A DNA stretch of 64,000 nucleotides from a virus (lineage: Duplodnaviria > Caudoviricetes). Numbering within the stretch: the first letter of the stretch is position 1; each line of letters opens with the position of its first letter. Positions 1,437 through 62,900 of the stretch are shown in pieces. A program made the position numbers and the translations under genes. Under the pieces are notes generated by a model. The model saw only the letters and a list, made by a program, of their open reading frames with translations. It was not told the DNA's origin and made no database searches. The DNA is taken from positions 1,879 through 65,878 of the IMG/VR virus record IMGVR_UViG_3300050821_000642; one strand, given 5' to 3'.

Positions 1437-1946
1437 ATGGCGCAAGCACCACAGACCCCGAGCCGTCCGCCGCCGCTGACGCGGGGGCAGATGGACAATC
1501 CCAATGCGGCAAGGGAGGTTACTCGCGAGGGTAACGGCAACGGACCCCCCAAACTGTCTCAGCGGGAGACGTTCAAGCAGCGTATGGAGGAGCAAGCGGC
1601 AGCGTTCAAGCGCACCGACGACGCCGCGTACGAGCGCGCTACGATGGGCGTGGGCGATGACGAAGACCTGCGCGACAAGCTGTTGGCGCTGGGTTGCGAC
1701 GTGACCCGCGCCAGCCCGGCAAGGGAGCAACCGCTTCCCGACGCAGTGCCGGGACTGACCACCACGACCGGCGCGCATGGCTCGCCTATCGACCCGACCA
1801 CGGCGGCGGTCCCCGCTCCCGACGACAGCGAAATGGTTGTCCGTCGCCGGGGGTTTCCTACCGTGGGAAGCGGCAGGGAGGGCGGTGGCCCGGAGAAGCG
1901 TTGGATGAAGCGCCAGAGCCAAGACGCAGTTGCTGCCGAAGAGTAA
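1437..1946 (+). CDS. Hypothetical protein
   Basis: AAGGA RBS upstream; last gene before a hairpin. Confidence 0.6.
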   Translation: MAQAPQTPSRPPPLTRGQMDNPNAAREVTREGNGNGPPKLSQRETFKQRMEEQAAAFKRTDDAAYERATMGVGDDEDLRDKLLALGCDVTRASPAREQPLPDAVPGLTTTTGAHGSPIDPTTAAVPAPDDSEMVVRRRGFPTVGSGREGGGPEKRWMKRQSQDAVAAEE

Positions 1947-1954
1947 CAACCTAA

Positions 1955-3167: not shown

Positions 3168-3478
3168 CAGTTACCCTCCTGAGTAAGGAGACGCAACGCC
3201 TTGAGGCGCTGCATCCCTTCGATCAACTCCAACTCTGCCGGGGTGTCCATTGCCCCGGCCCACGTCGCGCTCATGTCAGGTAGTGGTAGATCAGGTGCAG
3301 GACGAACGGGAGGATTAACGCCGCTTGGTAGAACGCGTACCGGGACGCTCGCCCGCGCATATATGCCACAACGTTGCGGATATGGATAATACCAGCGACT
3401 ATACTTATGGCAAGCGTAAACTGGTTGAGCGTGGGCATAGATTACCCCCGTGAGTAACACGGCAGCGAGGGTTCTCAC
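3167..3478 (-). CDS. Hypothetical exported protein
   Basis: Signal-peptide-like N-terminus; coupled to both neighbours. Confidence 0.55.
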   Translation of the reverse strand: MRTLAAVLLTGVIYAHAQPVYACHKYSRWYYPYPQRCGIYARASVPVRVLPSGVNPPVRPAPDLPLPDMSATWAGAMDTPAELELIEGMQRLKALRLLTQEGN

Positions 3479-3705: not shown

Positions 3706-3724
3706 TGGTTACTCTCCTGAGTTA

Positions 3725-6673
3725 TTATGGGACGTTAGGTTCAAACTTTCCGTGGGCTATGATGTACTCAAGCGTCTCCTCTAATACGGTGCCGGTCGCC
3801 TCGATCACCCACGAGTTTTCTTTAGCGCCAGCCATCTCCGTGCCAGCGCCGATGACGACGTTCAGCATTTTCGCGCTGAGCCGTTTCTTCATTGCCGCTT
3901 GCAGGTTTGATTTAGGTCGCCCCGTCCGCTTGCACCACGAAGTCAGGGCGCTATCGGTGATACGCAATATGAGCGGGCTACCCGATAGCTGCACCTCAAG
4001 CGTCCCCCAACTGAAATTCGGCGGCTTGAAGTTGATGATCTTAATGTCCTTGCTTGGCTTGCCCGCACCCATTTGTGTCTTGTTAAGGATGACGGTGTTG
4101 CGTGGCAGCTTCTCGTTGAGGAACGCGCCCAACGTACTCACGAGAGCAGTGTCAGTGCCGAAGTCGCTGGGATCGTCCGCCATCTCCTGCTTCATACGGC
4201 GGAACTCGTCGTACATATACGCCTTCATTACGTCGATGGGGAACTTGCAAAACCCTAGCTTGTTAGCGAGGTGAGCGCCCAACAAGATTGTTGCGATGGC
4301 GTCAATCCAATAGCGCTCGATCTTAGGATCAGCGCCTAGCTCTTCTGCGCACTGCTGTTGCGTGGCGACCAACGCCTTGCTGATCTTGGTGTGGTTCTTG
4401 CCAAGGAACTCTGCGTACTTGAGGCCGATCCCGCCAAAGTTAAAGTGCAAGTCCGTCAGGTGTCTGTTGACAGCGTAGGCAAACTCTTTCTCGGTCTTTG
4501 GCAAGTCGATGGCTTGCATCTCAAACATGCGCAACCACGACGCGTCTGTGCCTTTATCCTCTTGCCGTACGGCATCGACAATGGACCCGTTGGCGCAGTA
4601 CCCGCACAGCGTGCGAAACTCTTTCACCTCTCGCATCGCGCCCATACGGTTGGCGCGGCCCTTCTCGCGCCCGCCCGTGAGTTGGAACGCCAACTCGGTC
4701 ATCGCCTTCATCTGCTTCTCGCCCTTGATCTCGTCATAGAACAGGGGCAAGTGGCGCAACGTGGCGCACTTGGCGAAGGTATAGATTACGGTGTCGCTAA
4801 GACCACCCACCACTGGTTTCGACCACGCGGCTTGCCCAAACAAGAGCGCGGTTGATTTGCCAATGCCGGATTTACCTGAGACTAACCCAAGGAGTAACCC
4901 GGCATGCCCGGTCATGTCCACCAAGGGAGAAGCGAACGTCGCGGCTCCCATGCAGCACAAGTCAGGGCGTTCAGGCGCCAAGAGGATATTCGCCAGCGCT
5001 CGCCACGGCGCTTCGTCGCCAAGCACCCGGTAATCCTCAACGCCATCGCCCGGACGGTTCGATTTGAACTCACCGGCAGGGGAGAAAAACCTTCCGGCGA
5101 AAGCAAAGCCCATCTCGTTTCTATAGTCTTGGCTCCAACCGAAGGCTGGCACGTCGATCAAAGTTTCCTTCTTATGCTGCAAGAGCTTGAGGTAGTTTGC
5201 CATGAACATTCTCGAAAGTTCGGGCTTGATCGTGAGCGGCATTGCTTCAGAAGCAAGGGCTTTAGAGAACCCGATGTTGTCGGCAGTGATGGTGCTGTCG
5301 AACCGCTTAGTGACGATCTTCTCACCCTGTATGGTGTCAAACGAAAATCGGAATGGCTTGCCAAACTCTACGCTGGCTGACCCCGGCAGAATAGGGTACT
5401 CAAATACGAGGAACTGCTCCATGCCGCCTTTGTCGTCAGGCTTTGAGGTATAGATCAGGTCGTCGTTGCCTCGGTAGTAACCTGTCGGCAGGTCTATTGA
5501 GTTTGGGCTGGGGTTTCCTTGGAAGCCAGCGTGAGTACGATTGTGGGGCTGTTTATATTGAACTGATAGTGGGGTGGTGCCGAGAGCAAGATGCGGACAG
5601 GTGGCGCACTGGGGTATGCCAAGGGCATTGATGGTGGCGCACTTCTCGGGGCCAATGCTTGGGCGGTTTGCCCGCGCTTGGAGAGCCACCGCGAGCTTAG
5701 CATCTGTATCCGCCTCGCTGTAATAACTACTGCCTCGGGATAGCCGGTGAGCAGTTGCACTAGGATCATCACAGTGGCAAGCAAGACCAACAGCAAGTTT
5801 CCACTGGGGTTCACCGACGAGATTAGCGCCAGCTTTATCCAGCGTTTCTTTAATGAACGGGCAGAACCCCGCCACCACATCGATGTTCGCAGGCGCATAA
5901 CCACTCTTCATGCCGCCAGACAGATCGTCGTTGACGCCCGACTTACTCTCTTGAGTACGGCTTCCCGCCCCACCCCCCGGCACCGCGCCTACGATCTTGT
6001 ACTGGGACAGTCCCTTCTGCATATCTTTTAGCGGAATATGCGTGGTATTGCAATAGAGCATGGTGACCGGCTTGGCCTCAACGTCAGGCCCGCCCTTGAA
6101 ATTCCACGTCCCCGGCACCCTTAGCAGGCGGCACGGGTCGTTAGTGCATTGCCGGTCGAACAACACGCCATGCTGGGTCGCCGCCGTCGATAGCTGCGCG
6201 GCCATGTGCCGGAACTCACGCGGCTCAAACTCGGTGTCGAGCGTCCAGTACACATGCACGCCGCCGTTGCCGCTCGCGACGATGATAGTTGGATACGGCA
6301 GGCCACACACGAGAGTAAACTTTTTCAGCGCTACCAGCACCGCCTTATGGTCGGGGTAGGCGCTCTCCTTGACGTCCATATCCATGTAAAGGTTCTTGCA
6401 GGCGACGAGGTTTGGCTCCTGCCGTACCGCCTTCGGGTATATCCGGCCCATCTCCCCGGCGTTACGGAATGCGCCTTGCGCGAGGTACACGCACTGCCCG
6501 CGTGACGCCCAGTAGTTCGCGTCTTCCAGCGCCGCACGGATGCTCTTGTGCGCATTGCCGGGGAAGATAGGCGGGCGACCGTCCTGAAACAATAACCGTC
6601 GATGAATGCTGAACCAAGTATCCTTGTCGGCAAGGGCTACCTGCGTCAGAAAAATATGGCCCTCATTGTCCAC
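3725..6673 (-). CDS. Primase-helicase (AEP/RepB-like N-terminus, DUF927, P-loop helicase)
   Basis: YMDMDVK, SGNGGVHVYW and RLLRVPGTWN are AEP motifs; CxxC pair; FGW; Walker A GKSGIGKS; FYDE. Confidence 0.85.
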   Translation of the reverse strand: MDNEGHIFLTQVALADKDTWFSIHRRLLFQDGRPPIFPGNAHKSIRAALEDANYWASRGQCVYLAQGAFRNAGEMGRIYPKAVRQEPNLVACKNLYMDMDVKESAYPDHKAVLVALKKFTLVCGLPYPTIIVASGNGGVHVYWTLDTEFEPREFRHMAAQLSTAATQHGVLFDRQCTNDPCRLLRVPGTWNFKGGPDVEAKPVTMLYCNTTHIPLKDMQKGLSQYKIVGAVPGGGAGSRTQESKSGVNDDLSGGMKSGYAPANIDVVAGFCPFIKETLDKAGANLVGEPQWKLAVGLACHCDDPSATAHRLSRGSSYYSEADTDAKLAVALQARANRPSIGPEKCATINALGIPQCATCPHLALGTTPLSVQYKQPHNRTHAGFQGNPSPNSIDLPTGYYRGNDDLIYTSKPDDKGGMEQFLVFEYPILPGSASVEFGKPFRFSFDTIQGEKIVTKRFDSTITADNIGFSKALASEAMPLTIKPELSRMFMANYLKLLQHKKETLIDVPAFGWSQDYRNEMGFAFAGRFFSPAGEFKSNRPGDGVEDYRVLGDEAPWRALANILLAPERPDLCCMGAATFASPLVDMTGHAGLLLGLVSGKSGIGKSTALLFGQAAWSKPVVGGLSDTVIYTFAKCATLRHLPLFYDEIKGEKQMKAMTELAFQLTGGREKGRANRMGAMREVKEFRTLCGYCANGSIVDAVRQEDKGTDASWLRMFEMQAIDLPKTEKEFAYAVNRHLTDLHFNFGGIGLKYAEFLGKNHTKISKALVATQQQCAEELGADPKIERYWIDAIATILLGAHLANKLGFCKFPIDVMKAYMYDEFRRMKQEMADDPSDFGTDTALVSTLGAFLNEKLPRNTVILNKTQMGAGKPSKDIKIINFKPPNFSWGTLEVQLSGSPLILRITDSALTSWCKRTGRPKSNLQAAMKKRLSAKMLNVVIGAGTEMAGAKENSWVIEATGTVLEETLEYIIAHGKFEPNVP

Positions 6674-6700
6674 ATGCGTACTCCCCAGTACCAGTAAGGT

Positions 6701-6723
6701 GGGGCGGGTTCCATGCCCGCCCC
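6701..6723. terminator. Intergenic GC-rich hairpin
   Basis: GGGGCGGG-ttccatg-CCCGCCCC between the SSB-like and primase genes. Confidence 0.45.
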
Positions 6724-6729
6724 TATTGT

Positions 6730-7926
6730 TTACTCGCCCATCAACTTGTCGAACATGGCCGACATTCTATCGGCAGGCGATCCTTCTGGCACGGGCGGCG
6801 GGGTTTCATCCACCGTCTCGTCGTCTGTCGCCACGACCACCCGCTTGGGCGGGATGTTGCGCCCTCCAGTAGCATTAGAGGAAGCGTTGACTTGGCGGGT
6901 GCTTGGAGGAGGTGCAGCGGGTTGAGCGACCGCTTCAGCGATGCCGGTATTCACTGCATGCCCCCCCACTCTCGTTGTGGAAGCGGGAGCCGGGGGTGGC
7001 GGGGGAGCCACCTCTTGGGGCGCAGCTTGCGCAGCGGGAGTCGTCTGCGTCTTGGGCGGCATGCCGGTTGACGCCTTCGGCGGCTGTCCCGGCGCACGGG
7101 GAGCCTGCACCTGCGACTGACCCTCCGCACCCTCGCTCGGGTGATCCACCTCGCCGCCATCGACGTTGATCTTGGACACGAGGATGCGATTGACCGCCTC
7201 GGCGTCACGCAAGCTCATGATCACGTCGCTCTCGGCGTCGTCCAAGGGCTTCATGTACTGGAACACCACCTTGGAGAACTTGAGCAGCGGCTCATAACTC
7301 AAGCGAGTAACAACGGCGCAGTAGGGAACGCCCTTGCTGCCGTCCGCCAACTCCATGATGTTCAGCGCCTCGCTGTAGCGCACCATGTTGGTGAGCGAAC
7401 CGGGCGGCACGCTCAACAGCATGGGTCCGCCCTCGGCTTCGTTGGTGAGGTCGATTCCCGGTGCATACGGCACGATAACGGTGCGCCGACGCTGCTGGCA
7501 GGCTTGCGCCTTGGGTGCGGCAGGAGAAGCGCCAGAACCCCATGCAGAGTTAGGACATGTAGCGCATACCGGGTTGACCGGCTGCGCCACCGTCTCGTCA
7601 GGCTTGATGCCGTTGCTCGACCAGCAGTCGGGCTTCTTCCCGCGCACGCCCTGCACATAGCCGCTGGCGTAGAACACCCGCGACATTTCCTTTTGGGCTT
7701 TAAGGATTACAACATCGACAAAAGGCGCGGGGTAATCGGTGTTGGGGATTTTCACCAACCGATCTTCACCCTTCCACCGCACCACCCACTGGTTGGTGCC
7801 AATCGCCAGAATGGGGAAGCTAAGAGCTACGCCCTGCGCGAGGTCGTCGTTGTCCCGTGGGACGTTCGACCACCGATTGGAGATCGCAACTGGCCCCGTG
7901 GGGGGCTTCTGTACAACTTGGTTCAT
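6730..7926 (-). CDS. Putative ssDNA-binding/annealing protein with Cys cluster and disordered tail
   Basis: PDCWSSNGIKPD...CATCPNSAWGS...ACQQRRR pattern seen in phage replication modules; Pro/Ala-rich acidic C-terminus. Confidence 0.6.
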   Translation of the reverse strand: MNQVVQKPPTGPVAISNRWSNVPRDNDDLAQGVALSFPILAIGTNQWVVRWKGEDRLVKIPNTDYPAPFVDVVILKAQKEMSRVFYASGYVQGVRGKKPDCWSSNGIKPDETVAQPVNPVCATCPNSAWGSGASPAAPKAQACQQRRRTVIVPYAPGIDLTNEAEGGPMLLSVPPGSLTNMVRYSEALNIMELADGSKGVPYCAVVTRLSYEPLLKFSKVVFQYMKPLDDAESDVIMSLRDAEAVNRILVSKINVDGGEVDHPSEGAEGQSQVQAPRAPGQPPKASTGMPPKTQTTPAAQAAPQEVAPPPPPAPASTTRVGGHAVNTGIAEAVAQPAAPPPSTRQVNASSNATGGRNIPPKRVVVATDDETVDETPPPVPEGSPADRMSAMFDKLMGE

Positions 7927-7957
7927 AGTCTGTCCTTTCGTTGGTTACTCTCGTGGG

Positions 7958-8461: not shown

Positions 8462-8767
8462 TGTATCTGTCCTTTCTATTGGCACCACCCTATGGTGCAG
8501 TAACTGTACCCAATTCCCTTTATCGTTAAACCCGTAATCGTGTTCCTTTCGTTCAATCCAACGCTTCCTAAGCATTGGGGCCATGCGTGGGGTGATGGAG
8601 TCTTTGTCTTCTCCAAGCGCCTTTGCTATCTGAGGGTTGGTCCGCCACTCACCCCGGCATGAGAAAAGATAACGGTAGACTCTAACCTCCAAAGCTCTGT
8701 TAGCCGCCCGCCTTGCCGCAGCGTGCGATGGACTAGGGTCCGTTCCACGGGCGTAACTCTCGTCCAT
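8462..8767 (-). CDS. Winged-HTH domain, reading in frame into the 7958-8461 gene
   Basis: ARGTDPSPSHAAA...TNPQIAKALG..DSITPRMAPMLRKRWI resembles phage wHTH proteins; no stop before 8461. Confidence 0.55.
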
Positions 8768-8844
8768 TGTTTTTTCTGCCTATTAGGCGCTCAAATCCCC
8801 AAAAAATTTTTGGGGCAAAAAAGTGTTCCACAAATATGTGGAGG

Positions 8845-9051: not shown

Positions 9052-9056
9052 GAGAG

Positions 9057-54100: not shown

Positions 54101-56900
54101 CACGACCGGCGCAGGGTTCACCAACACCTCAAGCACCGGAGGGACTGACTATAGCGTTGGCGGCGACGACAAGCTGCAAACCACCAGCGACAACCAGATA
54201 TCCGGCACCGGCAATGCGACCATTCTGTCGGCCAAGGGCGGCTCGATCCCGCGCCGGAACCGCCGTCCTCCCCCGAGGAAGAACTACACCCGCTACGATC
54301 TCGGCGGCGCGGCAGGCGATCAGTCGGGCGATGTCTCGCCGTCCGCGCTGGGCATGCCGCCCGGTCTTAGCTCCGGGGGGCAACAGCAAATCCCGCCCTA
54401 TTATTACAACCCGGCGACTTATGCTGGCGCAGGCGCACCCGTGGGCAAGGGGGTGACCCAGACCAGCGTTCCCACCTTTAGCGCTGGCGCTATCCCCTCC
54501 CTGCCGATGGCGCGCGGTGGTACGGTGTATAAGTTTGATGACGGCGGCGATGTGCCTGACGAGAGCGCGGCGGCGATGCCCTCGCCCATTATGGACGAGA
54601 TGCAGGACCAGCGCGACGAGGCCGAGGACGCGCAGCGCGATCAGGTCAGCGCGCAAGCGGCGGCGGCTCCCGGCGCGGGCGCGGGCGCGTACGATCAGGG
54701 TGGCAAGTACTTCACGCCGCCCGACGACACGGCGGCTCCCCCTGTTACTCAAGCGGGTAACCAAGATGGGCAAGCTCAGCATGGGCCGTACCGGCGCACC
54801 GACCAGCTTACGCCGCAGATCAAGGACAACGACGGCAACCCGTCGCGCGGCTTGGTTGACGCGATCTCCGGTGGGCTACAGTGGATCGCTTCGCATCTGG
54901 GGCTGGGCAGCGCGCAGGCCGCAGGCATTGCGGGCGACCCAAACACCCAGACGGCGCGGATGAACTTTTCTTCCGGCAAGCAACCGGATGGCGATGCGGT
55001 GATCTCTCATGCTGCTTATCATGAAGCGGGCGATATCCAAGACCCGGCCAATGCGCTCAACACCGTCGAGCATAAGATCGCAGGCATGGAAGGCATGCGG
55101 TTGTGGATGCTGAACCGTGGCGACGTGGTGGGCGCGAACAAGATGGCGGCGTCGATGATGCAATACAGCGCCATCGCCAACGCCCCTATCGGTGAAGAGG
55201 CCGCGCGCCGGTACTACGACGGCGACCTTAAGGGCGCGGTCGATGCGCTCAACGAAGCCAGCGCCAACGTGGTTGATGGCAGGCACATCGTCGCCTCTCT
55301 GGTGCCGGATGGCAAGGGCGGTCAGATGGTGCATGTCGAGGGCAGCACGCTCGATGGGCGCACGTTGTGGCAGCAGATGGTGGCTCCGCACGCCATCCTC
55401 GCGGCGGCGCTGGGGTTCAAGGATCAGTCGTACACGTGGAAGCGCTACGAGGATCAAGCGGTCAAGTACGACCCGGAGATGAAAGCCGAGTACGACGCTC
55501 GCATTGCCGAACAAAAACAACAGCGCAAAGAGGCCGACGCGCAAGCCAAGGCCACTGCGTCAGAGACGGCGCTTGGCCCGACCGACAGGCCCTATGCGCC
55601 GAGCGCCAACGCAACCATGCCAACGCCCGCGCAGCCGTCAGCGCCAGCGCCTACGCTGACTCCGGTGGGTGCGCCTGCCGCCCCTGCTGCGCCGACTGCG
55701 CCGTCACCCGGTCGCAGCCCCGACACCACGACGGCGCAGACCGCCGCGCCTCCTCCCACTTCCGATGGCTCTTTATTGGCGCGGGGGCCGACCGGGCATG
55801 GCGGCGCGATCCCGTCGCAGGCCGGTCCTAACATTGCTACGCCCGACGCACAGGAAGCCGCAGCGGATACCGACTTTCAGAAGATCGCCGCTTCGCTGGA
55901 CAAGCAGGAGACTGACGGCTACGCGACGATCCGCAGTAACCATATCAGCCCCGCTGGCAATCCGATATTGGGCGGCAATGAAATCCTCCCTGCCGACCCG
56001 AACCACCCGCGCGATGCGGCATGGCAGGCGCGTGACGCCCGTTGGCGCGAGGCGATGCAGACCGTCAACCAGACCATTGCCTCCGAAGGTCACGACCTGA
56101 CGGTGCGGATCGCTTCGCAACGACAGGCGTTGGCGCAGTCTTATGCGGCAGCGAAAGAGCAGCGTGGCGCTGAGCGCGCCGCCGCCAAGACCGCCGCTGG
56201 ACAGGTCCAAGCGCAGACGATGGAGACGACGCGCGAGGAAGGGCGGCAGAAGTTTGAAACCGGCAAGGAGATGAGCAGCCGCGAGTGGGACTCGACCAAG
56301 CCGCGCGCCAGCGAGGAGGTGGAGCGGGAGATCAACATGACGCCCGACCCACAGACGCCTAGCCCGAAAGACCCGAACGTGATCATGGCGCACTCGCTGG
56401 GCTACACCGACAGCCGGGGCAGGCCGCAGATCGACCGGCTCAACAACCTTCTGACGGCGCAAGAGCAGACCGTCATGTCGCAGGCGCTGGTCAGCGGTTT
56501 TCATTACTCGCCCACCCAGAGCCTTGCGGCGGTGGCCGACATGGTGACCGGCGCAGTGACCAACAAAAACTACGAGATGTCTGGCGAGCCGTTGAGCGCC
56601 GACAAGACCTATGGCGTGCCGCGCGTTCTGGTCACGGTCAACCGGCTGAACGACAACGGCGAGGGGGTCACCAGCGGCAAGATGGCGATGCCGACCGAGG
56701 ACTACCGCAACCTGAGAGGGCTGATCAAGCAGCGCGCCGCCGCCGAAGCTAAGCGCAACCAAGCCCCGCCGCCCGAGGTGGCTGCGCCGCCTAGAGGTCC
56801 AGACCCTGCGCCCCTGCCGTTGGGTCCGCAGGGCATACCCGCACGGCCAAACTTAGTGCCGCAGTTTGGTCCCCGTCTCGTACCCCGTCCAGCCGCATGA
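51141..56900 (+). CDS. Large internal virion protein with lytic transglycosylase domain
   Basis: AESGGNP.A...GLTQIN...A..VY..QGW.AW SLT-like motif near the N-terminus; long Pro/Thr/Gly-rich regions. Confidence 0.78.
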   Translation: MAMGKHYGSFGKGFADALIAMIKLSYMRDYYKSRRDYYESRAAAYGQPKPGSKAALDAEGNRIRLDAEGRPLPDTAYGGGKQETPAAGKVPMADMVKMAEKAGFKGDDAAHMAALAQAESGGNPGAVGKAGEIGLTQINPHAWPAEMVSAARDPQGAFNAAYKVYQQQGWKAWSTDPSSPNFTPGNNGMRFFDAARGYVTGEKPTTKVAATPDTAKPVKPGTEKTKVGATGGPDVKVGGKTYHTDADGRILGDDGKPTQAQAGPSPGSYQVAGDSTIALSPEEAERARADLEAHRVAPSDTRSLDSPIKQHPERTGGVDTQSAPDPVAVPDESSERPPSLTPPPPERGPELAGQRQWSEEDQPALPPVPSPRPIQGPPQRTGAPPNVGITPSSVPEPVSTQNTVRPEPPVSVPVSHTPIGGGEGNRMEGPRGTSVADAPSRAAQPVSATRAIPSTPVTPVSNQPSGGRFVPIERPNLDQAGGAQGRSGGPPTMTALNLGSLFGPNPPLSQRGGGGGGGGQAAPSSPPQGQILSPPGGGPTPYPGPTMNPSGNIVLSEGQGARGGQSVPAPMPPIRPDDLDVATASRKGGPIQRFNRGGIPTRPTIGLAAGGDAPASSQYPSYTPKAAAAQPGLQGNVLAADEYMTGLPGMTAVDLHNPNSMYYTSYGPGQGGIGGQTLTTDWSRMTPDQKAQYAAMTAGTWQPPAATPAPTPAPAPATPTVINPPSVQNITNMPAATTITDPTTTTTTGTPGVPNAIQAKSYDPNVDATTGAGFANTSNTGGTNYSVGTDDKLNQTTPGTISGTGDGTILSRGGGPIPRRQAFARGGIPSRPTLRLQAGGNAAIAAMNSPSYIGPTLQGGWQGTPESQLAPNQQAWANTEQGILAQELSAAHKDAAYWGAGGTNPTGGNDTMQYWNQLTTMPAAVWPTTTTTPTPIAEPAPTVQNVVNQGQPIVDIATIDPTATTTTGAPGIPNAIQAKSYDPNVDATTGAGFTNTSSTGGTDYSVGGDDKLQTTSDNQISGTGNATILSAKGGSIPRRNRRPPPRKNYTRYDLGGAAGDQSGDVSPSALGMPPGLSSGGQQQIPPYYYNPATYAGAGAPVGKGVTQTSVPTFSAGAIPSLPMARGGTVYKFDDGGDVPDESAAAMPSPIMDEMQDQRDEAEDAQRDQVSAQAAAAPGAGAGAYDQGGKYFTPPDDTAAPPVTQAGNQDGQAQHGPYRRTDQLTPQIKDNDGNPSRGLVDAISGGLQWIASHLGLGSAQAAGIAGDPNTQTARMNFSSGKQPDGDAVISHAAYHEAGDIQDPANALNTVEHKIAGMEGMRLWMLNRGDVVGANKMAASMMQYSAIANAPIGEEAARRYYDGDLKGAVDALNEASANVVDGRHIVASLVPDGKGGQMVHVEGSTLDGRTLWQQMVAPHAILAAALGFKDQSYTWKRYEDQAVKYDPEMKAEYDARIAEQKQQRKEADAQAKATASETALGPTDRPYAPSANATMPTPAQPSAPAPTLTPVGAPAAPAAPTAPSPGRSPDTTTAQTAAPPPTSDGSLLARGPTGHGGAIPSQAGPNIATPDAQEAAADTDFQKIAASLDKQETDGYATIRSNHISPAGNPILGGNEILPADPNHPRDAAWQARDARWREAMQTVNQTIASEGHDLTVRIASQRQALAQSYAAAKEQRGAERAAAKTAAGQVQAQTMETTREEGRQKFETGKEMSSREWDSTKPRASEEVEREINMTPDPQTPSPKDPNVIMAHSLGYTDSRGRPQIDRLNNLLTAQEQTVMSQALVSGFHYSPTQSLAAVADMVTGAVTNKNYEMSGEPLSADKTYGVPRVLVTVNRLNDNGEGVTSGKMAMPTEDYRNLRGLIKQRAAAEAKRNQAPPPEVAAPPRGPDPAPLPLGPQGIPARPNLVPQFGPRLVPRPAA
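53360..54232 (+). repeat. Intragenic ~210-bp duplication
   Basis: PNAIQAKSYDPNVDATTGAGF.NTS.TGGT.YSVG.DDKL...ISGTG..TILS encoded at ~53360-53575 and ~54020-54232. Confidence 0.85.
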
Positions 56901-56924
56901 GAGGCTTACCCACGCGAGTAACTG

Positions 56925-59900
56925 ATGGCTGACGTAGACGCCGATCTGTACGCACCCATTCGCGGGGTCGGTCCCGATAGCGCTTCTGCGTCTACGCCTA
57001 CGCCTGCGCCGCCGACGCAAGCGGGCGACGACGATCTGTATGCGCCCATTCGTGGCGCAGGCCCGCCCATCAGTCCGTCTCCGAGGGACTTGGGGCCGGT
57101 GCCGTGGAGCGACGTGGGCGCGGGCTTGGCGGCTGGCTACCACGAAGGCATGTCCGACATTGGCGGGTTTGGCTCGCGCTTCGCCGGGTCGCCCGAGATG
57201 CAGCGCTACTACGCTGACCAAGCGTTGCGCGAGCGCACACTCGGGCAACGCGACGTACAGAGCATGACCCCTGCCGGTCAGCAGGGCCGCGAGCAGGGGT
57301 TCTGGAGCCATCCCATCCTACAGGGCGCAGAGGCGGCTCCGAGCATGGCCGGGGCGGCGGCTCCCGCCATCGTGGGCGGCGCGATAGCGGGGCCACCGGG
57401 CGCAATCGCAGGCGGCGCGCTGGGGTTTGGCGCGCAGGCGGCAGGCCAGACGGCGGCGGACGTGCATGGCAATATCGCTGACGCGAACGACGCGGCGCTG
57501 CAAAAGGCCAACCCGGACTACGCCGCCAAGCGCGTCTATATGTCGGAGGCCGACGCGAAATACGCCATCGCCCAAGAGAGCCTGAACAAGACCCACGCGG
57601 CAGAAATCTCAGGCGCGCTGGGCATGCTGTCGGGCGCGGTCGGACCCATTGCGGAAATTGGCGGTTCTGGGGTAGTAGGCAAGATCGTAGGCGATAGCCT
57701 CGTGCGTAAAGCGCTCGCCGGGGGCGTGTTTGAAGGCACGAATTTAGGCGCGCAGGCGGCAGGTCAAACCGCGTTCACCGCCAAGGCCGAGCAGCAAGCA
57801 GGCACGCGCGGCGCGGTGGCCCCCGGCGAGATCGCTGAAAGCTTTGGCGAAGGCTTCAAGACCGGGGCCGAACTCTCCCTGCCGGGGGTATTGTTCCACG
57901 GTAAGACCCGGCTCCCTCAAGGGGGTGTGAGCGCCGAGCCGACACGCTCTGACACCCAAGGGTTTAAGCCGGGAGTGCGCGGCAATGCGGGCAAAGGGCC
58001 AACCACTGCGCCAACTGACGAAGCAACTACGGGGACAAAAAGCGTCCCTAGTTCACCCATCACCCCCGACATTAAGGCCGCGACGGACGGCAAGCCTATT
58101 ACTCCCGTGGGTAAGCCACAGGAAACACCTGTACAACCACCCCCTCCGGTTGCACAACCTACAGGTGTGCCCGCACAGGAGCCTCAAGGAAGGCCGCCAG
58201 AGGCCCAAGTCGCTGCCGGGCCACCACCCCCACCCCCAGCCCCGGAAGGCCAGCCAGCGCCAACCCCTGCCGCGCCTGCTGCGGCTCCCATCGATCCCGT
58301 CGCCCTAGCGGCGCAGCACGCGGAGCTTGTGGACCCAAGCCACCCACGCGATGCGATGATCATCCCCAAAGGGGCGCAAGTCCCTGATATCACTACAGAT
58401 AAGTGGCGCTACGGCAATCTCAAGCTGCCCGACGACCAAGGCGTCGTCCGCTACGATCATAGTCGAGGAAACAAGTGGACTAAAGACAGCTTGAAGGCGG
58501 CGGCGAAGGATGGCACGCTGCAAGACAAGATCGACGCGCAGGCGGCGAAGCCTGCGGCAGAGTCCGTGGTAGGAGCGCAACCGGCAGCGGCGGCGGCAGA
58601 GCCTGTAAAGGCCGAGCCTGCCGCTGCCGAGGCGGCTCCCAGCCCTGCGGAAGCCCCAAGCGTAGGCGACCGGATCAAGGCCGATATCGCGAAGCAACCA
58701 GAGGATGTACAACCTAAAGGTGTACAACCAGAAGGTGCAGGGGTTACTCAAGAGAGTACGCCCCCCGACCCGCTGGCGGGCGGGACCAAGGTCGCAGAGA
58801 ACAAAGCCGGGGTGGCGATCTACCGCATGCCTGACGGCAGCTTAATGAAAGCGGGCCTTGGCAAGGACGTGAGGCCGGTCACCGAGGCGACCGCCAAGAT
58901 CATCTTCCCCAAGGAGTTCGGCGGCGAGGGCTACGTCCCGGCTGAAAAATCCGAGGCTGACAAAATCCGTGAGGCGGCAGACGCCGAGGCGGCGCGGCTC
59001 AAGCTGGCGAAGGAAACGCCTCCCCCCACTGCCGAAGCGGAAGCGCCCAAGGGAAGGGTCTTGCGCTCCGAAACACCCGAGGAGCAGGAAGCCGCCGCGC
59101 GCCAAGCCGAGGCGGATCGCCTCGCTGCCGAACGAGTGGCGACCGAGCAGCCCGCCAAGCCCGTCACCCGGCAGACAAAGGAACCCGAAGAACAGAAGCC
59201 CGGCAAGAAGAGCGAGCCTGAGAAAGAGGCGATGCGCGCCTCTAACGCCGTCGCTGACGACATTGTGCGTAACAACCTGCCTCAAGCGGGCGACGAGCAT
59301 GCGCCCGATCCGGCCCGAGGATCGGGGGGCAAGGGAGCGCGCGAGCAGGTCAAGGCGCGCGTACAAAAGATGGTGAAAGAAGCCAACGACGGTGGCTTCA
59401 AATTCATGAAGATGCTCAAGGACCGCAAAGACCCGGAGCTTGCGCACTCGGCTAGCTCTGTGTTGTTGCACGAGGCCAAGCGTCTCGCTGACATCAAGGT
59501 CGCCAAGACCTCCGACTACAAGCGCTTCTTGGATCGCGAGCGCGATCTGTTAAAGGGTGAAGCCGCCAAAGAAGGTGTACTCAAAGAGCGCCGCGCCGCA
59601 GGCAAGGAGTTCGCTGCGGCAGCGGGCAAGGGGGTCAAGGAAGCCGCCGCCGAGGATGTCGATACGGCAAGAAGGGTGGGGGAAGAAGACGTACCTGACG
59701 TAGCCGAAGAGTACGAGAAGGCCAAGGAGCGGGTTGCAGAAGAGAAAGTCGCTAAAGCTCCGGGGGAAAAACGAGAGAAGACCGACACTGAGAAGCGTGC
59801 AGAGGAAGCTGGCAAGCGCGCCGCTGAGCGAGCCAAGCAATTCGAGTTGCCCGAGGGCGCGTCAAAGGGTGATATCCTACGCAAGCTGGAAGCTGCCAAG

Positions 59901-62900
59901 CGCATGGCGCGCGACCAAAGTATCGGTGAGGAAGAACGTGACGCCGCGATGCGGGGCGTGCAACGCCTGCAAGACTCACTACGAAGCGCGATAGAGCGCG
60001 AGGAAGCGCCGCGCGAACGGCCTACGGTTACTCACGAGAGTGATGAACCTGCCGTCAAGGGCTACTCGATGGCGACCGGGTTCAAGGTCGAAGCGCGTAG
60101 AGGCCGCGCCCCTCCTAAACTGCCGGAGCGTCCAGCACAACGGGCGCTGGCGGGTGAAGAGTACGGCGGCGAGGCGTTTGAGCACCCCGAAGAGATGGTG
60201 GGGCCGGAAACTTATCTTCATGGCGCACGTCCGACTGAGGCCGAAGGCGTCGAGATGACCGACAAGAACGGCGATAAGTTCACCGTGCATCCGTTTGAAA
60301 CGACAGACGCCGAAGAATTGCTTCGAAGACATTTCTATCCAGAGTACCATGACGAAGCTTACCGCGAGCCGCTTAAACGATTGCGTGATGCGCTTTTGAC
60401 AATGGCGGGCGATGTCAAAGTTTACATTGTCTCTTCGCGAGATATAGACCGGCTGTACCCCGGCGTCGAGGGCTATTACGATGGTGATAGAAACCACATC
60501 GTCTTGGATGGCAGCGCGTTTTCATCCGACGCTCCCATACACGAAGTGTTTCATGCGGCGACATATCACGCCATACGACAGAACCCCGACCTCGACAGGT
60601 TGCTGCACCGGCTGCACCTAGAAGCCAAACAATGGGCAAAACTGGACCCGGAAGAATGGGATAAAATTCATTATTTTTTCGGCAACCGCGAGGAATTTCT
60701 CACTGGATTAATGACAAACCCAGACATGCAGCAGTTGCTTAAAAAGATGAAAATCAGTTCGCAACTGGCGGGTGATATCGGCATCCCCAAGTGGCGCAAG
60801 ATGACCATGTGGAACGGCATGGTCGAGCTTATTCGACAGGCGCTGGGGATGGGTAAGCGCGACGTGAGCGCGATAGAAGCCGCGATGGCGTTGAGCGAGA
60901 ACTTAATGTGGCGCGATCCGCGTGGCGCAGGCATGCTGATGGGGGCGGCGGGTAAACTATCGCGTGCGCAGTTGCGCGGCTCCCGGTTAGCCAGAGCGCG
61001 TGAGCTACCCGAGCGGGCGGGGAGGGTGCGCGAGGCGACCGAAGACCCAGAGAAGGCGGGACGCGACTACGGGCGTGAGCATAAGGGATGGGTGAACAAG
61101 ATCAACGACGCGGTGAAGACCACGCTGACTGACAAGAACCCGACCTTCAAGCAAGCCGCCGAGCGCTTCGCCAGCGAGCCGCAGATGTACGAACTGCACC
61201 GCGACAAGTTTAAAGACGGAAAAAGCGATCCACTTAGGGACCGCCTCGATGCGATGCAGCAGCGCGGGGGCCGGGCTGAAGAGCTAGCCGAGCCGGGCAT
61301 GCGGCTGGCGCATGAGTGGATTGGGCTAGCCGACAAGCATGGCCCCGACAGCATGGCGAAGCTGCAAGACGTGATGCGGATGGCGAACGAGTTCGGCGTC
61401 TACCCGCACCACCCGCTGGGCGAGGGGGTGAACGCGCATCTGGCGAGCGACACGCTCGACCACATCCAAGCGCGGGCGGTTCACCCGGAGATCAGCGCCA
61501 AGTTCAACGCGCTACACAAAGATTTACAAGCGCACTTCCTCGCGCAGGACAAGCACTTCAAGGACGACCTCAACGCGATCAGAAAGCTCAACGCCAAAAA
61601 CTTTATCGAGGGCATCGACCCTCCTGCCGGATCGACTACGCTGGACGTGCTGGACCGGATGCTGGCGGGCAAGCTGACCGACGCTGACAAGGCGCATTAC
61701 GCGCGCTATGGCGTCGAGGGGCTGGACGCGGACGTGTTTCAGCGCCGCAAGGGGCCATACTTTCCTGCCGCCCGGCATGGAGATTTTGTCGTCCGGGCTG
61801 AGCATGACGTGCTTACGCCCAAAGGCTCCGACCGGGATTACCACGGTAATTTGTTGGAGCCGAACGTTCGAAGGTTTAATACTCGCGCCGAGCTTGAGAA
61901 GTATCTGGGTGAGGTGAACTTACCCGCGCGAGTAAGCCTCAAATACTACTTCGACAATCCGGCAGGGGGGAGGATATATCAGGTCGATGACGGGCAGGGG
62001 GGCGTGCGCAACGTCGCTCACGACGAGGCGGGTATTGGGTATGGCAAGCCGCAGCCTGAGTATTGGGCGACGATGCAGCACAAGCGGGTCGAGTTCGCCA
62101 AGAGCCTGAGCGAGGGGCAGGAAATCCACCGCAGGCTGAGCGAAGCAAAACTTAAAAATCTATCGGGGGTCGAGCATCGCCGGGGGCAGGGGGTGGACAA
62201 GAGCTTCACCTCGCAACAAACCCAATCGTTGCTGGCCAGCATCGACAAGCGTACCGACCTGAGTGAGCAGCAGAAGAACGCGATGAAGGACATGATACGG
62301 GAAACCGCCATCGTCACCCAGAGCGGGAGCCGTCTGACTAAGAACTTTGTGCGCTCACAAAAAGTCCAAGGCGCGGAATACGGCGGCGAGGCGCTGTCTA
62401 ACCACGTCCTGTCGTCGTCCCGGTATCAAGCCGCCGCCGAGTTCCAGCCTAAGATCGATGACGCTTTCGAGCGCATGCGCCAAGTCATGGACGACCATCC
62501 CGACGACAAGCTGACCACTGATAGGAGTCGGGTGTACAACGAGCTTGCGTCACGTAGCTACAACGTGACGCCAGAGAACATGAACCCGTCCTACTCGCCG
62601 GTTGTGCAAAAATTAACGCAGATGACGTTCATTCAGGACATGGCTTCGGCATCGCACTTGCTGACCCATCAACTCAATCTGCACTACATGGGCGCGGCGG
62701 TGATGGCCCCGCGTCATGGCCTGATCCCGACGTTCCGCAAGTTTCATCAGATCATGCGTGAGGCGGGCGGGCCGTGGATGGCGGCGAAGAAAGGCTTTGG
62801 CTACGCCACCGCCAAGTTCCGTGACCCCGAGGCCGACTACACTTCGATGTTCGACATGATGCGCAACAGCGTCACCGACGCGCGCAGGCGAAGCGTAGTG

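What the first reader, a model, noticed from the sequence alone, without database searches (positions are those of the whole stretch)
1519..61935. Genome-wide 16-bp palindrome (TWACYC-N4-GRGTWA) at >=43 exact and ~14 near-exact sites
Seen: 43 exact copies (listed in features). Copies with 1-2 mismatches lie at 5943, 9728, 11243, 12742, 17338, 18728, 20973, 23651, 23843, 24873, 26426, 33728, 42530, 44305, 45998, 58744 and 60028. With 8 fixed and 4 two-fold positions, a uniform model expects about 0.06 copies in 64 kb, and fewer in GC-rich DNA. Sites occur in both arms, usually no more than ~2-3 kb apart. The conserved half-sites around a free 4-nt centre are what a dimeric DNA-binding protein would recognise. 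Known analogy: mycobacteriophage stoperators, though those are asymmetric and oriented. Inference: a phage-encoded protein coats or marks the whole genome, for silencing, self-protection from a phage nuclease, or compaction/segregation. I do not recognise this motif from any described system.
Basis: partly seen in the sequence, partly recalled or inferred. Interest (0 to 1): 0.92.

Follow-up and report, generated by a model that had tools for sequence, protein, structure and literature searches.

The report
Evenly spaced palindrome array in phage
A soil phage carries dozens of evenly spaced copies of one short DNA palindrome, and its relatives each carry their own version, which points to a phage protein that reads its own genome at regular intervals for a purpose not yet known.

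Summary
TWACYC-N4-GRGTWA occurs 44 times in the window (0.04 expected) and 78 times with up to 2 mismatches (9.2 expected). The window is a 65.9-kb podophage related to Rhizobium phage RHph_TM3_14A.

New findings:
- All 18 family genomes examined carry such an array, with lineage-specific half-sites (TTACTC, TTACCC, TTACCT, TAACTGC, TCACTA; also AACTAT, TCACTC and TTGCTC in further loci).
- Sites are more evenly spaced than a category-preserving null in 11 of 13 dense genomes.
- About 26% sit 1-6 nt upstream of start codons, doubling as stop codon plus ribosome-binding site. About 54% are inside genes.
- Mismatch patterns give no sign of RNA-hairpin selection.
- Host chromosomes lack the motif outside prophages.

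Reading: binding sites for a phage-encoded protein on double-stranded DNA. The best candidate reader is the C-terminal winged helix of the universal PrimPol-helicase, which resembles SaPI Rep and SCCmec Cch initiators that read iterons. Second is a small OmpR/PhoB-like winged-helix protein. The XRE-type helix-turn-helix candidate is rejected. The function is unproven. The closest described analogue is the unexplained 17-bp palindrome of Cluster O mycobacteriophages.

The parts
1519..1534 (.). exact copy, inside gene 1437-1946 (+)
3171..3186 (-). exact copy, 3 nt upstream of the ATG of gene 2790-3167
3442..3457 (-). exact copy, 3 nt upstream of the ATG at 3438
3709..3724 (-). exact copy directly after the stop of the PrimPol-helicase gene and 3 nt before the ATG of 3475-3705
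7295..7310 (.). exact copy inside gene 6730-7926
7945..7960 (-). exact copy at a junction; its TAA is the stop of gene 7958-8461; 18 nt upstream of the start at 7926
9044..9072 (-). two overlapping exact copies (9044, 9057) at the junction between the SNF2 helicase stop and the start of gene 8845-9051
12050..12065 (-). exact copy serving as stop codon + ribosome-binding site; 1 nt before the ATG of 11824-12048
12310..12325 (-). exact copy serving as stop codon + ribosome-binding site; 1 nt before the ATG of 12063-12308
13810..13825 (.). exact copy inside the DNA polymerase gene
14381..14396 (.). exact copy inside the DNA polymerase gene
15031..15046 (-). exact copy 1 nt upstream of the DNA polymerase ATG
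15620..15635 (.). exact copy inside gene 15586-15876
16455..16470 (-). exact copy at a junction: stop of the XRE gene, 2 nt before the GTG of 16000-16452
16802..16817 (-). exact copy at a junction: stop of 16815-17639, 1 nt before the TTG of 16468-16800
17641..17656 (-). exact copy 1 nt upstream of the ATG of 16815-17639
17998..18013 (-). exact copy at a junction: stop of 18011-18214, 1 nt before the ATG of 17832-17996
19403..19418 (-). exact copy; its last TAA is the stop of 19403-20809; 1 nt before the ATG of 19201-19401
20429..20444 (.). exact copy inside gene 19403-20809 (DUF2201/VWA)
20812..20827 (-). exact copy 2 nt upstream of the ATG of 19403-20809
21575..21590 (.). exact copy inside the ATPase gene 21340-22452
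22460..22475 (-). exact copy 7 nt upstream of the ATPase ATG
22924..22939 (-). exact copy 7 nt upstream of the ATG of 22650-22916
25444..25459 (-). exact copy 2 nt upstream of the ATG of 25193-25441
25929..25944 (.). exact copy in the non-coding control region
26300..26600 (.). AT-rich tract (the AT-richest 200-bp window of the genome, 68% AT, centred near 26431). It holds the one-mismatch copy at 26426 and lies beside two perfect copies. Candidate unwinding element of a primary origin (inference).
26622..26637 (.). perfect 16-bp palindrome, control region
26661..26676 (.). second perfect 16-bp palindrome, 39 bp from the first
27246..27261 (.). exact copy, control region
27818..27833 (.). exact copy between the divergent arms, 25 nt upstream of the terminase ATG (27859)
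29858..29873 (.). exact copy inside gene 29756-30328
31441..31456 (.). exact copy inside the portal gene
36840..36855 (.). exact copy inside gene 35894-37081
38186..38201 (+). exact copy 3 nt upstream of the GTG of 38205-38636
39970..39985 (.). exact copy inside gene 39840-40688
43112..43127 (.). exact copy inside the tail-fibre gene 42646-44157
47903..47918 (.). exact copy inside gene 46047-48341
49623..49638 (+). exact copy at a junction: stop of 49104-49625, 5 nt before the ATG at 49644
51120..51135 (+). exact copy at a junction: stop of 49644-51122, 5 nt before the ATG at 51141
52510..52525 (.). exact copy inside the 1919-aa gene
54745..54760 (.). exact copy inside the 1919-aa gene (an in-frame ATG lies 5 nt downstream; whether it is used is unknown)
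56906..56921 (+). exact copy 3 nt upstream of the ATG of the giant gene 56925-end
58099..58114 (.). exact copy inside the giant gene
61920..61935 (.). exact copy inside the giant gene
5943..63198 (.). 16 one-mismatch copies, at 5943, 9728, 11243, 18728, 20973, 23651, 23843, 24026, 26426, 33728, 42530, 44305, 45998, 58744, 60028 and 63183. Most are probably real degenerate sites; several fill the long gaps of the right arm.
3725..6673 (-). PrimPol-helicase, 982 aa (DUF927; SaPI Rep/SCCmec Cch-like, with a C-terminal winged-helix domain at about residues 894-974). Candidate reader 1.
12738..13055 (-). 105-aa OmpR/PhoB-like winged-helix protein. Candidate reader 2.

Best explanation
The palindrome is this lineage's version of a trait shared by a whole family of alphaproteobacterial podophages and prophages. 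Each genome carries 25-110 short inverted-repeat sites, evenly spaced about every 0.6-1.5 kb over both arms, and the 6-7-bp half-site differs between lineages. The sites are read as double-stranded DNA by a phage-encoded protein that co-evolves with them. Half-site centres lie 10 bp apart, which is one helical turn.

The most likely reader is the C-terminal winged-helix domain of the phage's own PrimPol-helicase (3725-6673). This protein resembles the self-loading initiator helicases SaPI Rep/PriRep5 and SCCmec Cch, whose winged helix recognises 5-6-nt iterons placed in opposite orientations around an AT-rich tract. On this reading each palindrome is an inverted iteron pair. The two perfect copies beside the AT-rich tract at 26.3-26.7 kb mark the primary origin. 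The dispersed copies serve as helicase/primosome (re)loading sites along the genome.

Because the half-site contains TAA and GAG/AGG, selection has placed many copies at gene junctions, where they cost nothing and double as stop codon plus Shine-Dalgarno. In long genes the copies are overprinted on coding sequence to keep the spacing.

Shown: the array, its family-wide presence and sequence switching, even spacing, junction overprinting, absence from host DNA, lack of hairpin covariation, and the fold of the helicase C-terminus. Inferred: which protein reads the sites, and that the purpose is replication.
For: The array is real and family-wide. There are 44 exact copies against 0.04 expected. 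In the 18 genomes, 24-109 copies with up to 2 mismatches were found against 0.6-7 in shuffles.

Half-sites are lineage-specific. Three further variants occur in other loci, including an integrated Rhodospirillales prophage. There, 23 of 29 TTGCTC-N4-GAGCAA sites in 5.2 Mb lie inside the ~51-kb prophage.

The motif is not a host motif. TTACC-N6-GGTAA occurs 1-6 times per 3.3-8.7-Mb host genome. All copies in two hosts and 5 of 6 in a third lie on the phage or prophage contig.

Spacing is even. The coefficient of variation of inter-site distances is 0.56-0.69, against about 1.0 for a null that keeps the junction/intragenic/intergenic counts. The result is at or below 0.007 in 11 of 13 dense genomes.

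There is no hairpin signal. G.U versus A.C mismatches are 167 vs 152 inside genes, and transversion-type mismatches number 333.

PrimPol-helicase as reader. It is present in 16 of 18 genomes; the 2 without it are truncated contigs. It is also present in the TTGCTC prophage. Pfam gives DUF927 at 6e-8. The AlphaFold model of the last 300 residues has pLDDT 85-94 over a beta-helix-helix-wing unit. Its best matches in both fold searches are SaPIbov1 Rep (Foldseek E 1.8e-3; VIA Z 7.7, 179 residues aligned, rmsd 6.8) and SCCmec Cch (E 3.4e-3; Z 8.6, 208 aligned, rmsd 5.5), aligned through to their C-termini. SaPI Reps read 5-6-nt iterons through a C-terminal winged helix, with iterons in opposite directions around an AT-rich region and a highly flexible C-terminal domain (PMC9371898, passages read). 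That flexibility would tolerate the N3/N4 spacing mix seen here. The start of the putative recognition helix differs by half-site class: PK[S/A/N] for TTACTC/TTACCC, PTS for TCACTA, PPR for TTGCTC, and [P/S/A]RH for 7 of 8 TTACCT genomes.

In this genome the AT-richest 200 bp holds one site and has two perfect sites 198 and 237 bp away, against 0.85 expected within +/-400 bp. Three exact sites follow the helicase gene within 550 bp.

Five gammaproteobacterial genomes with distant capsid relatives gave no match to the helicase with this one query, and showed no array in the 20 kb around the capsid gene. This is weak evidence.
Against: No known iteron system has 50-100 dispersed sites. SaPI origins have 6-12 iterons at one place.

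Clustering of sites at the AT-richest window is not general. 14 of 18 genomes have at least one site within +/-400 bp, where about 10 would be expected by chance.

The helix-versus-half-site pattern follows phylogeny and has exceptions: G003 has TRS with TTACTC, and G011 has PYT with TTACCT. It is therefore not independent evidence.

The fold matches are middling (Z below 9, Foldseek E above 1e-3), and the model is poor for its first 43 residues.

Individual sites turn over quickly. Between G000 and G006, arms are 0.86 identical against 0.80 for the flanks, and only 6 of 17 aligned sites keep identical arms. This fits any density-dependent role, not replication in particular.

A second winged-helix protein (12738-13055) is nearly as widespread and is a more conventional reader of palindromes.

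Sites sitting 1-6 nt before start codons (132 of 192 site-start pairs) could mean a role tied to gene expression.

The gene calls behind the site classes come from my own simple caller.
Confidence: 0.35

Rival explanations
1. The array is a set of operators for the small OmpR/PhoB-like winged-helix protein (12738-13055). This protein binds head-to-head as a dimer and acts as a global regulator or roadblock of phage transcription. It would be a palindromic counterpart of stoperators, used in lytic growth, for example to shut down the early/middle arm.
For: The protein is found in 16 of 18 genomes by profile search. The fold model is confident (pLDDT 89.7). The profile matches OmpR/PhoB DNA-binding domains: AdeR E 0.0017 and PhoB-family E 0.013. 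At least 18 of the 50 rows of the wide fold search are OmpR/PhoB-type domains, at Z 5.4-6.9. A long C-terminal helix could serve for dimerisation. The residue after the conserved Y/F of the recognition helix differs by class: K/A/V for TTACTC, T in all 3 TTACCC genomes, N for TAACTGC, S for TCACTA, I for AACTAT. Sites are densest in the left, non-structural arm: 42 in 25 kb against 24 in 36 kb. Several lie next to promoter-like sequences in the control region.
Against: The protein is absent from G017 (37 sites) and from the TTGCTC prophage (23 sites), even in permissive profile searches. Within the TTACCT class the recognition helix varies widely although the half-site is the same. No conserved flanking promoter elements lie beside the sites. 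The array covers both arms and the insides of late structural genes. Integrase-bearing relatives have the sparsest arrays. OmpR/PhoB domains usually bind direct repeats (recalled).
Confidence: 0.25
2. The sites nucleate a coat or mark of the phage genome by another phage protein. One possibility is the universal, highly expressed-looking 321-aa early protein (24047-25012), which has an acidic head and a lysine/alanine-rich tail. The purpose would be self-recognition, protection from nucleases or host defences, or compaction.
For: Even spacing and rapid positional turnover with maintained density fit a coverage function. The 321-aa family is present in 18 of 18 genomes. The phage encodes PD-(D/E)XK and VRR-NUC-type nucleases.
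Against: Nothing links that protein to DNA: there is no Pfam hit and only unnamed viral clusters in the Atlas. It was not detected in the TTGCTC prophage by tblastn. No test of coating is possible with these tools.
Confidence: 0.15
3. The element works in RNA. A hairpin at ribosome-binding sites would control translation or mRNA processing, like the start-associated sequences of Cluster K mycobacteriophages or a translational operator.
For: 26% of sites (196 of 749) lie within 30 nt upstream of a start, against 4% of random positions. 132 of 192 site-start pairs are 1-6 nt apart. In this genome the centre of junction copies is AGGA/AAGA/ACGA, a Shine-Dalgarno core.
Against: 54% of sites (408 of 749) are inside genes, away from starts. 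Junction copies break the stem in the sense strand: A.A at position 2/15 in 93 of 261 (position 2, start-proximal), and A.C outnumbers G.U 73 to 34. Intragenic G.U versus A.C is 167 vs 152. The TAACTGC class has no Shine-Dalgarno inside the motif. A 4-6-bp stem is weak.
Confidence: 0.05
4. The sites are used as extruded hairpins or cruciforms on single-stranded or supercoiled DNA. They could be targets of a nicking or structure-specific nuclease (the phage has two Endonuclease_7 genes), or primase signals on the lagging strand.
For: N3 and N4 spacers coexist within one genome, which a loop would tolerate. Two Endonuclease_7 hits were found. Localised nicks at short motifs are known in some phages (recalled, not checked).
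Against: Arms of 6 bp are too short for stable extrusion (established DNA energetics). There is no compensatory bias in mismatches. The two genes that I assign, by distribution only, to the two Endonuclease_7 hits are sporadic: each was found in 4 of the 17 relatives. The array is universal.
Confidence: 0.07
5. The sites bind a host regulator.
For: Phages of Alphaproteobacteria are known to carry host CtrA boxes (PMC9437464, seen in the search listing and abstract only).
Against: Close relatives differ in half-site: capsid 90-93% identical, yet TTACTC-N4 against TTACCC-N3. Host genomes lack the motif outside prophages. The motif is not the CtrA box (recalled consensus TTAA-N7-TTAA).
Confidence: 0.03

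Closest known systems
Cluster O mycobacteriophage 17-bp palindromic repeats (Corndog and relatives; PMC4351075, section 8 read)
   Same: A short palindrome (7-bp arms, 3-bp spacer) is present 34 times across a ~70-kb phage genome. 14 copies lie between genes, 10 near 5' ends of genes and 10-11 inside genes. It is absent from host genomes. The authors suggested binding by a dimeric protein, thought a transcriptional role unlikely, and left the function unknown.
   Different: The phages are unrelated (siphoviruses of Mycobacterium) and the sequence differs. Arms there are invariant within the cluster, with no reported lineage switching. Even spacing was not tested. There is no reported dual use as stop codon plus ribosome-binding site. 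Positions there are mostly conserved between the five genomes, whereas here they turn over.
Stoperators of Cluster A mycobacteriophages (PMC6550527 and PMC9283540; passages and abstract read)
   Same: Dozens of sites for one phage protein are spread over the genome, mostly not at promoters. The site consensus and the binding protein co-vary between lineages.
   Different: Stoperators are asymmetric 13-14-bp sites oriented with transcription. They are bound by a monomeric immunity repressor of temperate phages and block elongation in lysogeny. Here the sites are palindromic, this phage has no integrase, and the arrays are sparsest in the integrase-bearing relatives.
Start-associated sequences of Cluster K mycobacteriophages (PMC3203893, passages read)
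   Same: A conserved motif containing a Shine-Dalgarno core lies 3-7 bp upstream of start codons. It sometimes contains the stop codon of the upstream gene. It is absent from the host and its function is unknown.
   Different: Those sequences are asymmetric, in one orientation, confined to the non-structural half, and almost always at gene starts. Here more than half of the sites are inside genes and the motif is a palindrome on both arms.
Iteron origins of SaPI Rep / PriRep5 self-loading helicases (PMC9371898, passages read)
   Same: A primase-helicase with a C-terminal winged helix reads 5-6-nt repeats placed in opposite orientations beside an AT-rich tract. Specificity is allele-specific and the C-terminal domain is flexible.
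   Different: 6-12 iterons sit at one origin just downstream of rep, not 50-100 sites over the genome. The hosts are Gram-positive islands. Similarity here is by predicted fold only.
Dispersed 13-16-bp palindromic sites of ParB-family proteins (KorB operators on RK2, Noc sites, parS) (recalled)
   Same: Palindromes of similar size are scattered over a replicon and read by one protein with global effects.
   Different: No ParB-like family appeared among the proteins scanned. Those arrays have far fewer sites per kb.

Membership tests
Cluster A stoperator system | asymmetric site, oriented with transcription | tested here: not met
   Sites are inverted repeats. The only orientation bias is TAAC at stop codons.
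Cluster A stoperator system | read by the immunity repressor of a temperate phage | tested here: not met
   PF00589 integrase was found in 3 of 17 records, not in this one. Those 3 have sparse arrays. Serine integrases and repressors were not searched.
Cluster O-type dispersed palindromes | short palindrome, more than 30 copies, throughout the genome, both between and inside genes, absent from the host | tested here: met
   compared with PMC4351075 section 8.
Cluster O-type dispersed palindromes | common descent with the Cluster O element or phages | not tested
   No comparison of proteins or sites with Cluster O genomes was run. The consensus sequences differ.
Cluster K start-associated sequences | asymmetric motif, one orientation, essentially always just upstream of a start codon | tested here: not met
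   408 of 749 sites are intragenic, and the motif is palindromic.
SaPI Rep/Cch-type initiator helicase with iteron origin | helicase core plus C-terminal winged-helix domain | tested here: met
   DUF927 at 6e-8. The best fold matches are 8tch and 5dgk, aligned to their C-termini. A helix-helix-wing unit is modelled at pLDDT 85-94. The scores are middling.
SaPI Rep/Cch-type initiator helicase with iteron origin | 5-6-nt iterons in opposite orientation flanking an AT-rich tract | tested here: inconclusive
   The half-site is 6 nt and inverted. In this genome 3 sites lie at or beside the AT-richest 200 bp, but this is not general across the 18 genomes.
SaPI Rep/Cch-type initiator helicase with iteron origin | iterons confined to a single origin | tested here: not met
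   45 exact sites are spread over 65.9 kb.
SaPI Rep/Cch-type initiator helicase with iteron origin | the protein binds these sites | not testable with these tools
   This needs EMSA, DAP-seq or ChIP.
OmpR/PhoB winged-helix DNA-binding domain (for gene 12738-13055) | sequence and fold of the Trans_reg_C type | tested here: inconclusive
   No Pfam hit at E 0.05. The profile against PDB gives AdeR at 0.0017 and PhoB-family at 0.013. The wide fold search gives many OmpR/PhoB domains at Z 5.4-6.9, mixed with MarR-like and other winged helices.
XRE/Cro repressor-operator pair (gene 16468-16800) | reader present wherever the sites are, with a recognition helix that co-varies | tested here: not met
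   Found in 7 of 18 genomes. The helix is nearly identical (G[P/A/T]HTISKW) in genomes with TTACCC, TAACTGC and TCACTA sites, and differs between the two TTACTC genomes G000 and G006.
ParB/KorB/Noc-type palindrome systems | ParB-family protein encoded | tested here: inconclusive
   No ParBc hit among 42 + 25 proteins scanned with Pfam. The structural and giant proteins were scanned only with PHROGs.

The most novel reading that the evidence does not exclude
A family of phages has turned the iterons of its self-loading primase-helicase into a distributed system. 50-100 evenly spaced, inverted iteron pairs across the genome act as origin-like or helicase-reloading sites. Their sequence and spacer switch together with the helicase's winged helix, so that each lineage has a private replication code. 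Such a code could also act as a barrier, or a weapon, between co-infecting relatives.
Probability: 0.3. Interest if true: 0.85.

Novelty: new variant of a known kind. Interest (0 to 1): 0.72.

Why it matters
Dispersed palindromes in phage genomes have been reported before (Cluster O) but never explained. This family offers what was missing:

- At least eight natural specificity variants among syntenic genomes.
- A measurable design rule: even spacing kept up by rapid site turnover.
- Cultivable members (Rhizobium phages RHph_TM3_14A, TM27A and TM29).
- Two concrete candidate reader proteins.

That makes the function directly testable. If it is the small winged-helix protein, it would be a palindromic, lytic-cycle counterpart of stoperators. 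Either way the sites are a strong constraint on coding sequence and gene junctions. They also give a ready marker for classifying these phages and for predicting cross-interference between them.

Tried and rejected
XRE HTH (16468-16800) and the adjacent wHTH (16000-16452) as readers: rejected. Both are present in only 7 of 18 genomes, and the XRE recognition helix does not follow the motif.

N-terminal winged-helix-like part of ORF 7958-8767: it is found only in G000 and G001. The conserved part is the C-terminal Gp157-like domain.

Megablast of window 1-20000 against phage records: no match.

tblastn of the small wHTH against phage records: no match.

Rfam and tRNA scans of the window: nothing.

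Promoter/terminator scan of 22.4-31 kb: 7 promoter-like sites against 4.6 in shuffles, which is not informative.

Atlas look-ups of the 321-aa and 398-aa core proteins: only unnamed viral clusters.

Homodimer prediction for the small wHTH: no verdict. Not used as evidence either way.

Sequencing runs: 14 soil-metagenome DNA holders, kept as contigs; no RNA holder listed. Read laying was not run, because contigs cannot show ends or strands.

The search for related loci with the small wHTH gave few new loci, so a large covariation test was not possible.

Site clustering at the AT-richest window across genomes: not significant.

PrimPol-helicase query in five gammaproteobacterial genomes with distant capsid relatives: not found with this one query. 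This is weak.

Literature: searches found no paper describing this motif or naming RHph_TM3_14A, TM27A or TM29 (0 occurrences of the three names). Supplementary files were not opened. Subscription papers are outside the library.

Rows left out. One search used only the 13 dense-array genomes. The 5 sparse ones (G007, G012, G014, G016, G017) were tested only against uniform random placement, and none fell below the 5th percentile. G009 was never fetched.

Full report
Observation. The pattern TWACYC-N4-GRGTWA has 44 exact matches in the window, where dinucleotide-preserving shuffles give 0.04. With up to two mismatches there are 78 matches, against 9.15 +/- 3.1. The window is bases 1879-65878 of a 65,878-bp virus record with direct terminal repeats. 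That record holds 45 exact copies, and 0 for the reversed control pattern.

What the genome is. PHROG and Pfam scans identify these genes:
- terminase, portal and major capsid protein;
- tail fibres and an internal virion protein;
- two giant proteins, of 1919 aa and more than 2357 aa;
- DNA polymerase, an SNF2 helicase, and PD-(D/E)XK and VRR-NUC-type nucleases;
- a MoxR-like ATPase with a DUF2201/VWA partner;
- a 982-aa primase-helicase.

The nearest named phages are Rhizobium phages RHph_TM3_14A, TM27A, TM27B and TM29, with capsid 67% identical. Genes run leftward from about 27 kb and rightward from about 27.9 kb. An AT-rich non-coding control region lies between the two arms.

Anatomy of the copies. 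With a simple gene caller of my own, 25 of the 45 exact copies have a start codon of an ORF of at least 50 codons within 10 nt downstream. Two of these lie deep inside long genes and are probably not starts. In the sense strand these junction copies read TAAC(T/C)C-A(G/A/C)GA-GAGTAA, followed 1-7 nt later by ATG, GTG or TTG. The first TAA, and sometimes the last, is often the stop codon of the upstream gene. The centre is a Shine-Dalgarno core. The other copies lie inside genes (polymerase, portal, fibre, both giant genes and others) or in the control region. There, two perfect copies lie 39 bp apart (26622, 26661) next to the AT-richest 200 bp of the genome.

A family trait with switching sequence. 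I fetched 16 related IMG/VR records and the RHph_TM3_14A record. In all 18 genomes a gapped palindrome is strongly over-represented: 24-109 copies within two mismatches of the local consensus, against 0.6-7.0 in shuffles.

The half-sites differ between lineages:
- TTACTC with N4 in G000, G006, G002 and G005;
- TTACTC with N3 in G003;
- TTACCC with mainly N3 in G001 and G008;
- TAACTGC-N2 in G004;
- TCACTA in G010;
- (G)TTACCT in eight genomes, including the Rhizobium phage.

Further variants appear in other loci: AACTAT-N2-ATAGTT, TCACTC-N2-GAGTGA and TTGCTC-N4-GAGCAA. The last belongs to a prophage integrated in a Rhodospirillales genome. There, 23 of 29 matches (up to 1 mismatch) in 5.2 Mb fall inside the roughly 51-kb prophage, which is syntenic with this phage. 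N3 and N4 spacers coexist within single genomes, for example 41 against 29 in G013.

Not a host motif. In four bacterial genomes that carry related prophages or the phage contig, TTACC-N6-GGTAA occurs 1-6 times in 3.3-8.7 Mb. All copies in two hosts and 5 of 6 in a third lie on the phage or prophage contig. The fourth host has a single copy, on a contig whose relation to the prophage I did not check.

Placement. Over the 18 genomes, 749 sites lie within one mismatch of the local consensus:
- 196 (26%) lie up to 30 nt upstream of a called start;
- 408 (54%) lie inside genes;
- 145 (19%) lie in other non-coding DNA.

Random positions give about 4%, 88% and 8%. Of 192 site-start pairs, 132 have a gap of 1-6 nt.

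Spacing is more even than chance. The coefficient of variation of inter-site distances falls below the 5th percentile of uniform random placement in 11 of 18 genomes. A stricter null keeps each genome's numbers of junction, intragenic and intergenic sites. Against this null, 11 of the 13 dense-array genomes lie at or below 0.007; G005 and G001 do not, at 0.17 each.

Individual sites are not strongly conserved in position. Between G000 and G006, arms are 0.86 identical against 0.80 for the flanks, and 6 of 17 aligned sites keep identical arms. Density is kept while sites turn over.

DNA or RNA. Consider the arms as a stem read in the sense strand. Intragenic sites show 167 G.U-type and 152 A.C-type mismatches, plus 333 transversion-type ones. 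Start-proximal sites show more A.C (73) than G.U (34), and many A.A at position 2/15. No exact copy in this window combines C5 with G12. So there is no selection for pairing. Half-sites degenerate independently, as expected for a protein reading duplex DNA. Flanks are not conserved, so the sites are not part of a larger promoter-like unit.

Lifestyle. A tyrosine integrase (PF00589) is found in only G012, G014 and G016. These have sparse arrays, and two of them are classed as proviruses. It is absent from this phage and from the other 13 records searched. G012 is a decayed provirus with a truncated polymerase gene. A lysogeny-silencing role like that of stoperators is therefore unlikely to be the main function.

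Who reads the sites. The XRE-type protein (16468-16800) occurs in 7 of 18 genomes. Its recognition helix is nearly the same in genomes with three different half-sites, and differs between two genomes with the same half-site. It is rejected.

A 105-aa protein (12738-13055) is found in 16 of 18 genomes. It models confidently as a winged helix with a long C-terminal helix and resembles OmpR/PhoB DNA-binding domains. One helix position differs by class. Against it:
- G017 and the TTGCTC prophage lack it although they have arrays;
- its helix varies widely within the TTACCT class.

The only DNA-handling protein with a plausible sequence-reading domain that is present wherever it could be checked is the PrimPol-helicase. 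It is in 16 of 18 genomes, the two exceptions being truncated contigs, and in the TTGCTC prophage. It carries DUF927. Its last 300 residues were modelled with 12 orthologues. They end in a beta-helix-helix-wing unit at pLDDT 85-94. Both fold searches rank the SaPIbov1 Rep initiator-helicase and the SCCmec Cch helicase first. Foldseek gives E 1.8e-3 and 3.4e-3. VIA gives Z 7.7 (179 aligned, rmsd 6.8) and Z 8.6 (208 aligned, rmsd 5.5). These are middling scores.

According to PMC9371898 (passages read), SaPI Reps, including the fused PriRep5, initiate replication through a C-terminal winged helix. It recognises penta- or hexanucleotide iterons placed in opposite directions around an AT-rich region, and that domain is very flexible. 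The first residues of the putative recognition helix here differ between half-site classes, with two exceptions, but this also follows phylogeny.

I therefore rank the helicase first (about 0.35), the small winged-helix protein second (about 0.25), and an unidentified coat or marking protein third. That the sites are read by some phage-encoded protein on duplex DNA I hold at about 0.75.

Comparison with known systems. The nearest described thing is the 17-bp palindrome of Cluster O mycobacteriophages. It has 34 copies in Corndog, between and inside genes, and is absent from hosts. The authors proposed a dimeric protein, thought transcriptional control unlikely, and left the function unknown (PMC4351075, section 8 read). 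Stoperators share the genome-wide, co-evolving logic, but they are asymmetric, oriented and tied to an immunity repressor (PMC6550527 passages; PMC9283540 abstract). Cluster K start-associated sequences share the position before start codons and the embedded Shine-Dalgarno, but they are asymmetric and nearly always at starts (PMC3203893 passages).

What is new here:
- the family-wide switching of half-site and spacer;
- the even spacing with turnover;
- the systematic reuse of the site as stop codon plus ribosome-binding site;
- a concrete link to an initiator-helicase family.

Earlier notes of this scan on the same window had already noted the junction use, the intragenic copies and the perfect pair. 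I confirm those. I contradict the XRE assignment.

Verdict. This is a real, strongly non-random and biologically organised feature. I class it as a new variant of a known but unexplained kind of phage element. The mechanism is only partly resolved.

Noticed in passing
window about 26040-26110 (- strand), inside ORF 25929-26225: A tiny conserved reading frame encodes ...RKVGGLRF(V/I)KIGR...(S/M)F..SR. It is found in the control region of at least 12 of the 18 genomes and in the Rhodospirillales prophage, as ORFs of about 24-40 codons. It is annotated as a 35-aa hypothetical protein in RHph_TM3_14A (EVB41_027). It does not vary with the palindrome class. Its function is unknown.
   Followed up: partly
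window 1930-2721 (+): The phage encodes a protein with a PEP-CTERM sorting motif (Pfam PF07589, E 5e-7, among the 42 proteins). The sequence ends in VPEPSTWA, a hydrophobic stretch, then RR.
   Followed up: partly
window, the gene sets (probably 2790-3167 for one): Two Tad2-like (anti-Thoeris) domain hits, E 1.6e-9 and 1.3e-21. The batch scan does not say which gene carries each.
   Followed up: no
window 39403-39843 and 48671-49117 (+) (assignment inferred): Two Endonuclease_7 family hits. These two genes are similar in size. Each was found in the same 4 of the 17 relatives searched (G001, G015, G012, G016). That pattern is typical of free-standing homing endonucleases inserted in the structural module.
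   Followed up: partly
window 24047-25012 (-): A 321-aa early protein is present in all 18 genomes. It has a variable acidic N-terminus, a conserved helical core and a lysine/alanine/glutamate-rich tail. It has the highest GC3 of the genome (0.81), no Pfam family, and two copies in G012.
   Followed up: partly
window 51141-56900 and 56925-64000 (+), continuing into the start of the record: Two giant genes (1919 aa and more than 2357 aa) close the structural arm. The second runs off the window end and belongs to phrog_37402 (unknown function). Whether it holds an enzymatic domain such as a virion polymerase was not examined.
   Followed up: no
G012 (locus L118, about 8.4-10 kb of the record): This record, classed as a provirus, has a truncated SNF2 gene (349 aa) and a 151-aa remnant of the DNA polymerase. 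It lacks the region between them, yet still carries 52 degenerate sites. It looks like a decaying prophage with relic sites.
   Followed up: partly
L158 and L159 (Pseudolabrys MAG contig, 22-43 kb and 84-105 kb): Two copies of a related prophage lie about 62 kb apart on one 465-kb contig. Their palindrome sites are at matching offsets, which suggests a recent tandem or duplicated prophage.
   Followed up: no
window 12742-12757 and 24873-24888: Two copies carry the symmetric double change TCACTC...GAGTGA. Eight one-mismatch copies carry GTGA on the sense 3' side, against one with TCAC on the 5' side. This is a small strand bias at position 2/15 that the duplex-binding model does not explain.
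   Followed up: partly
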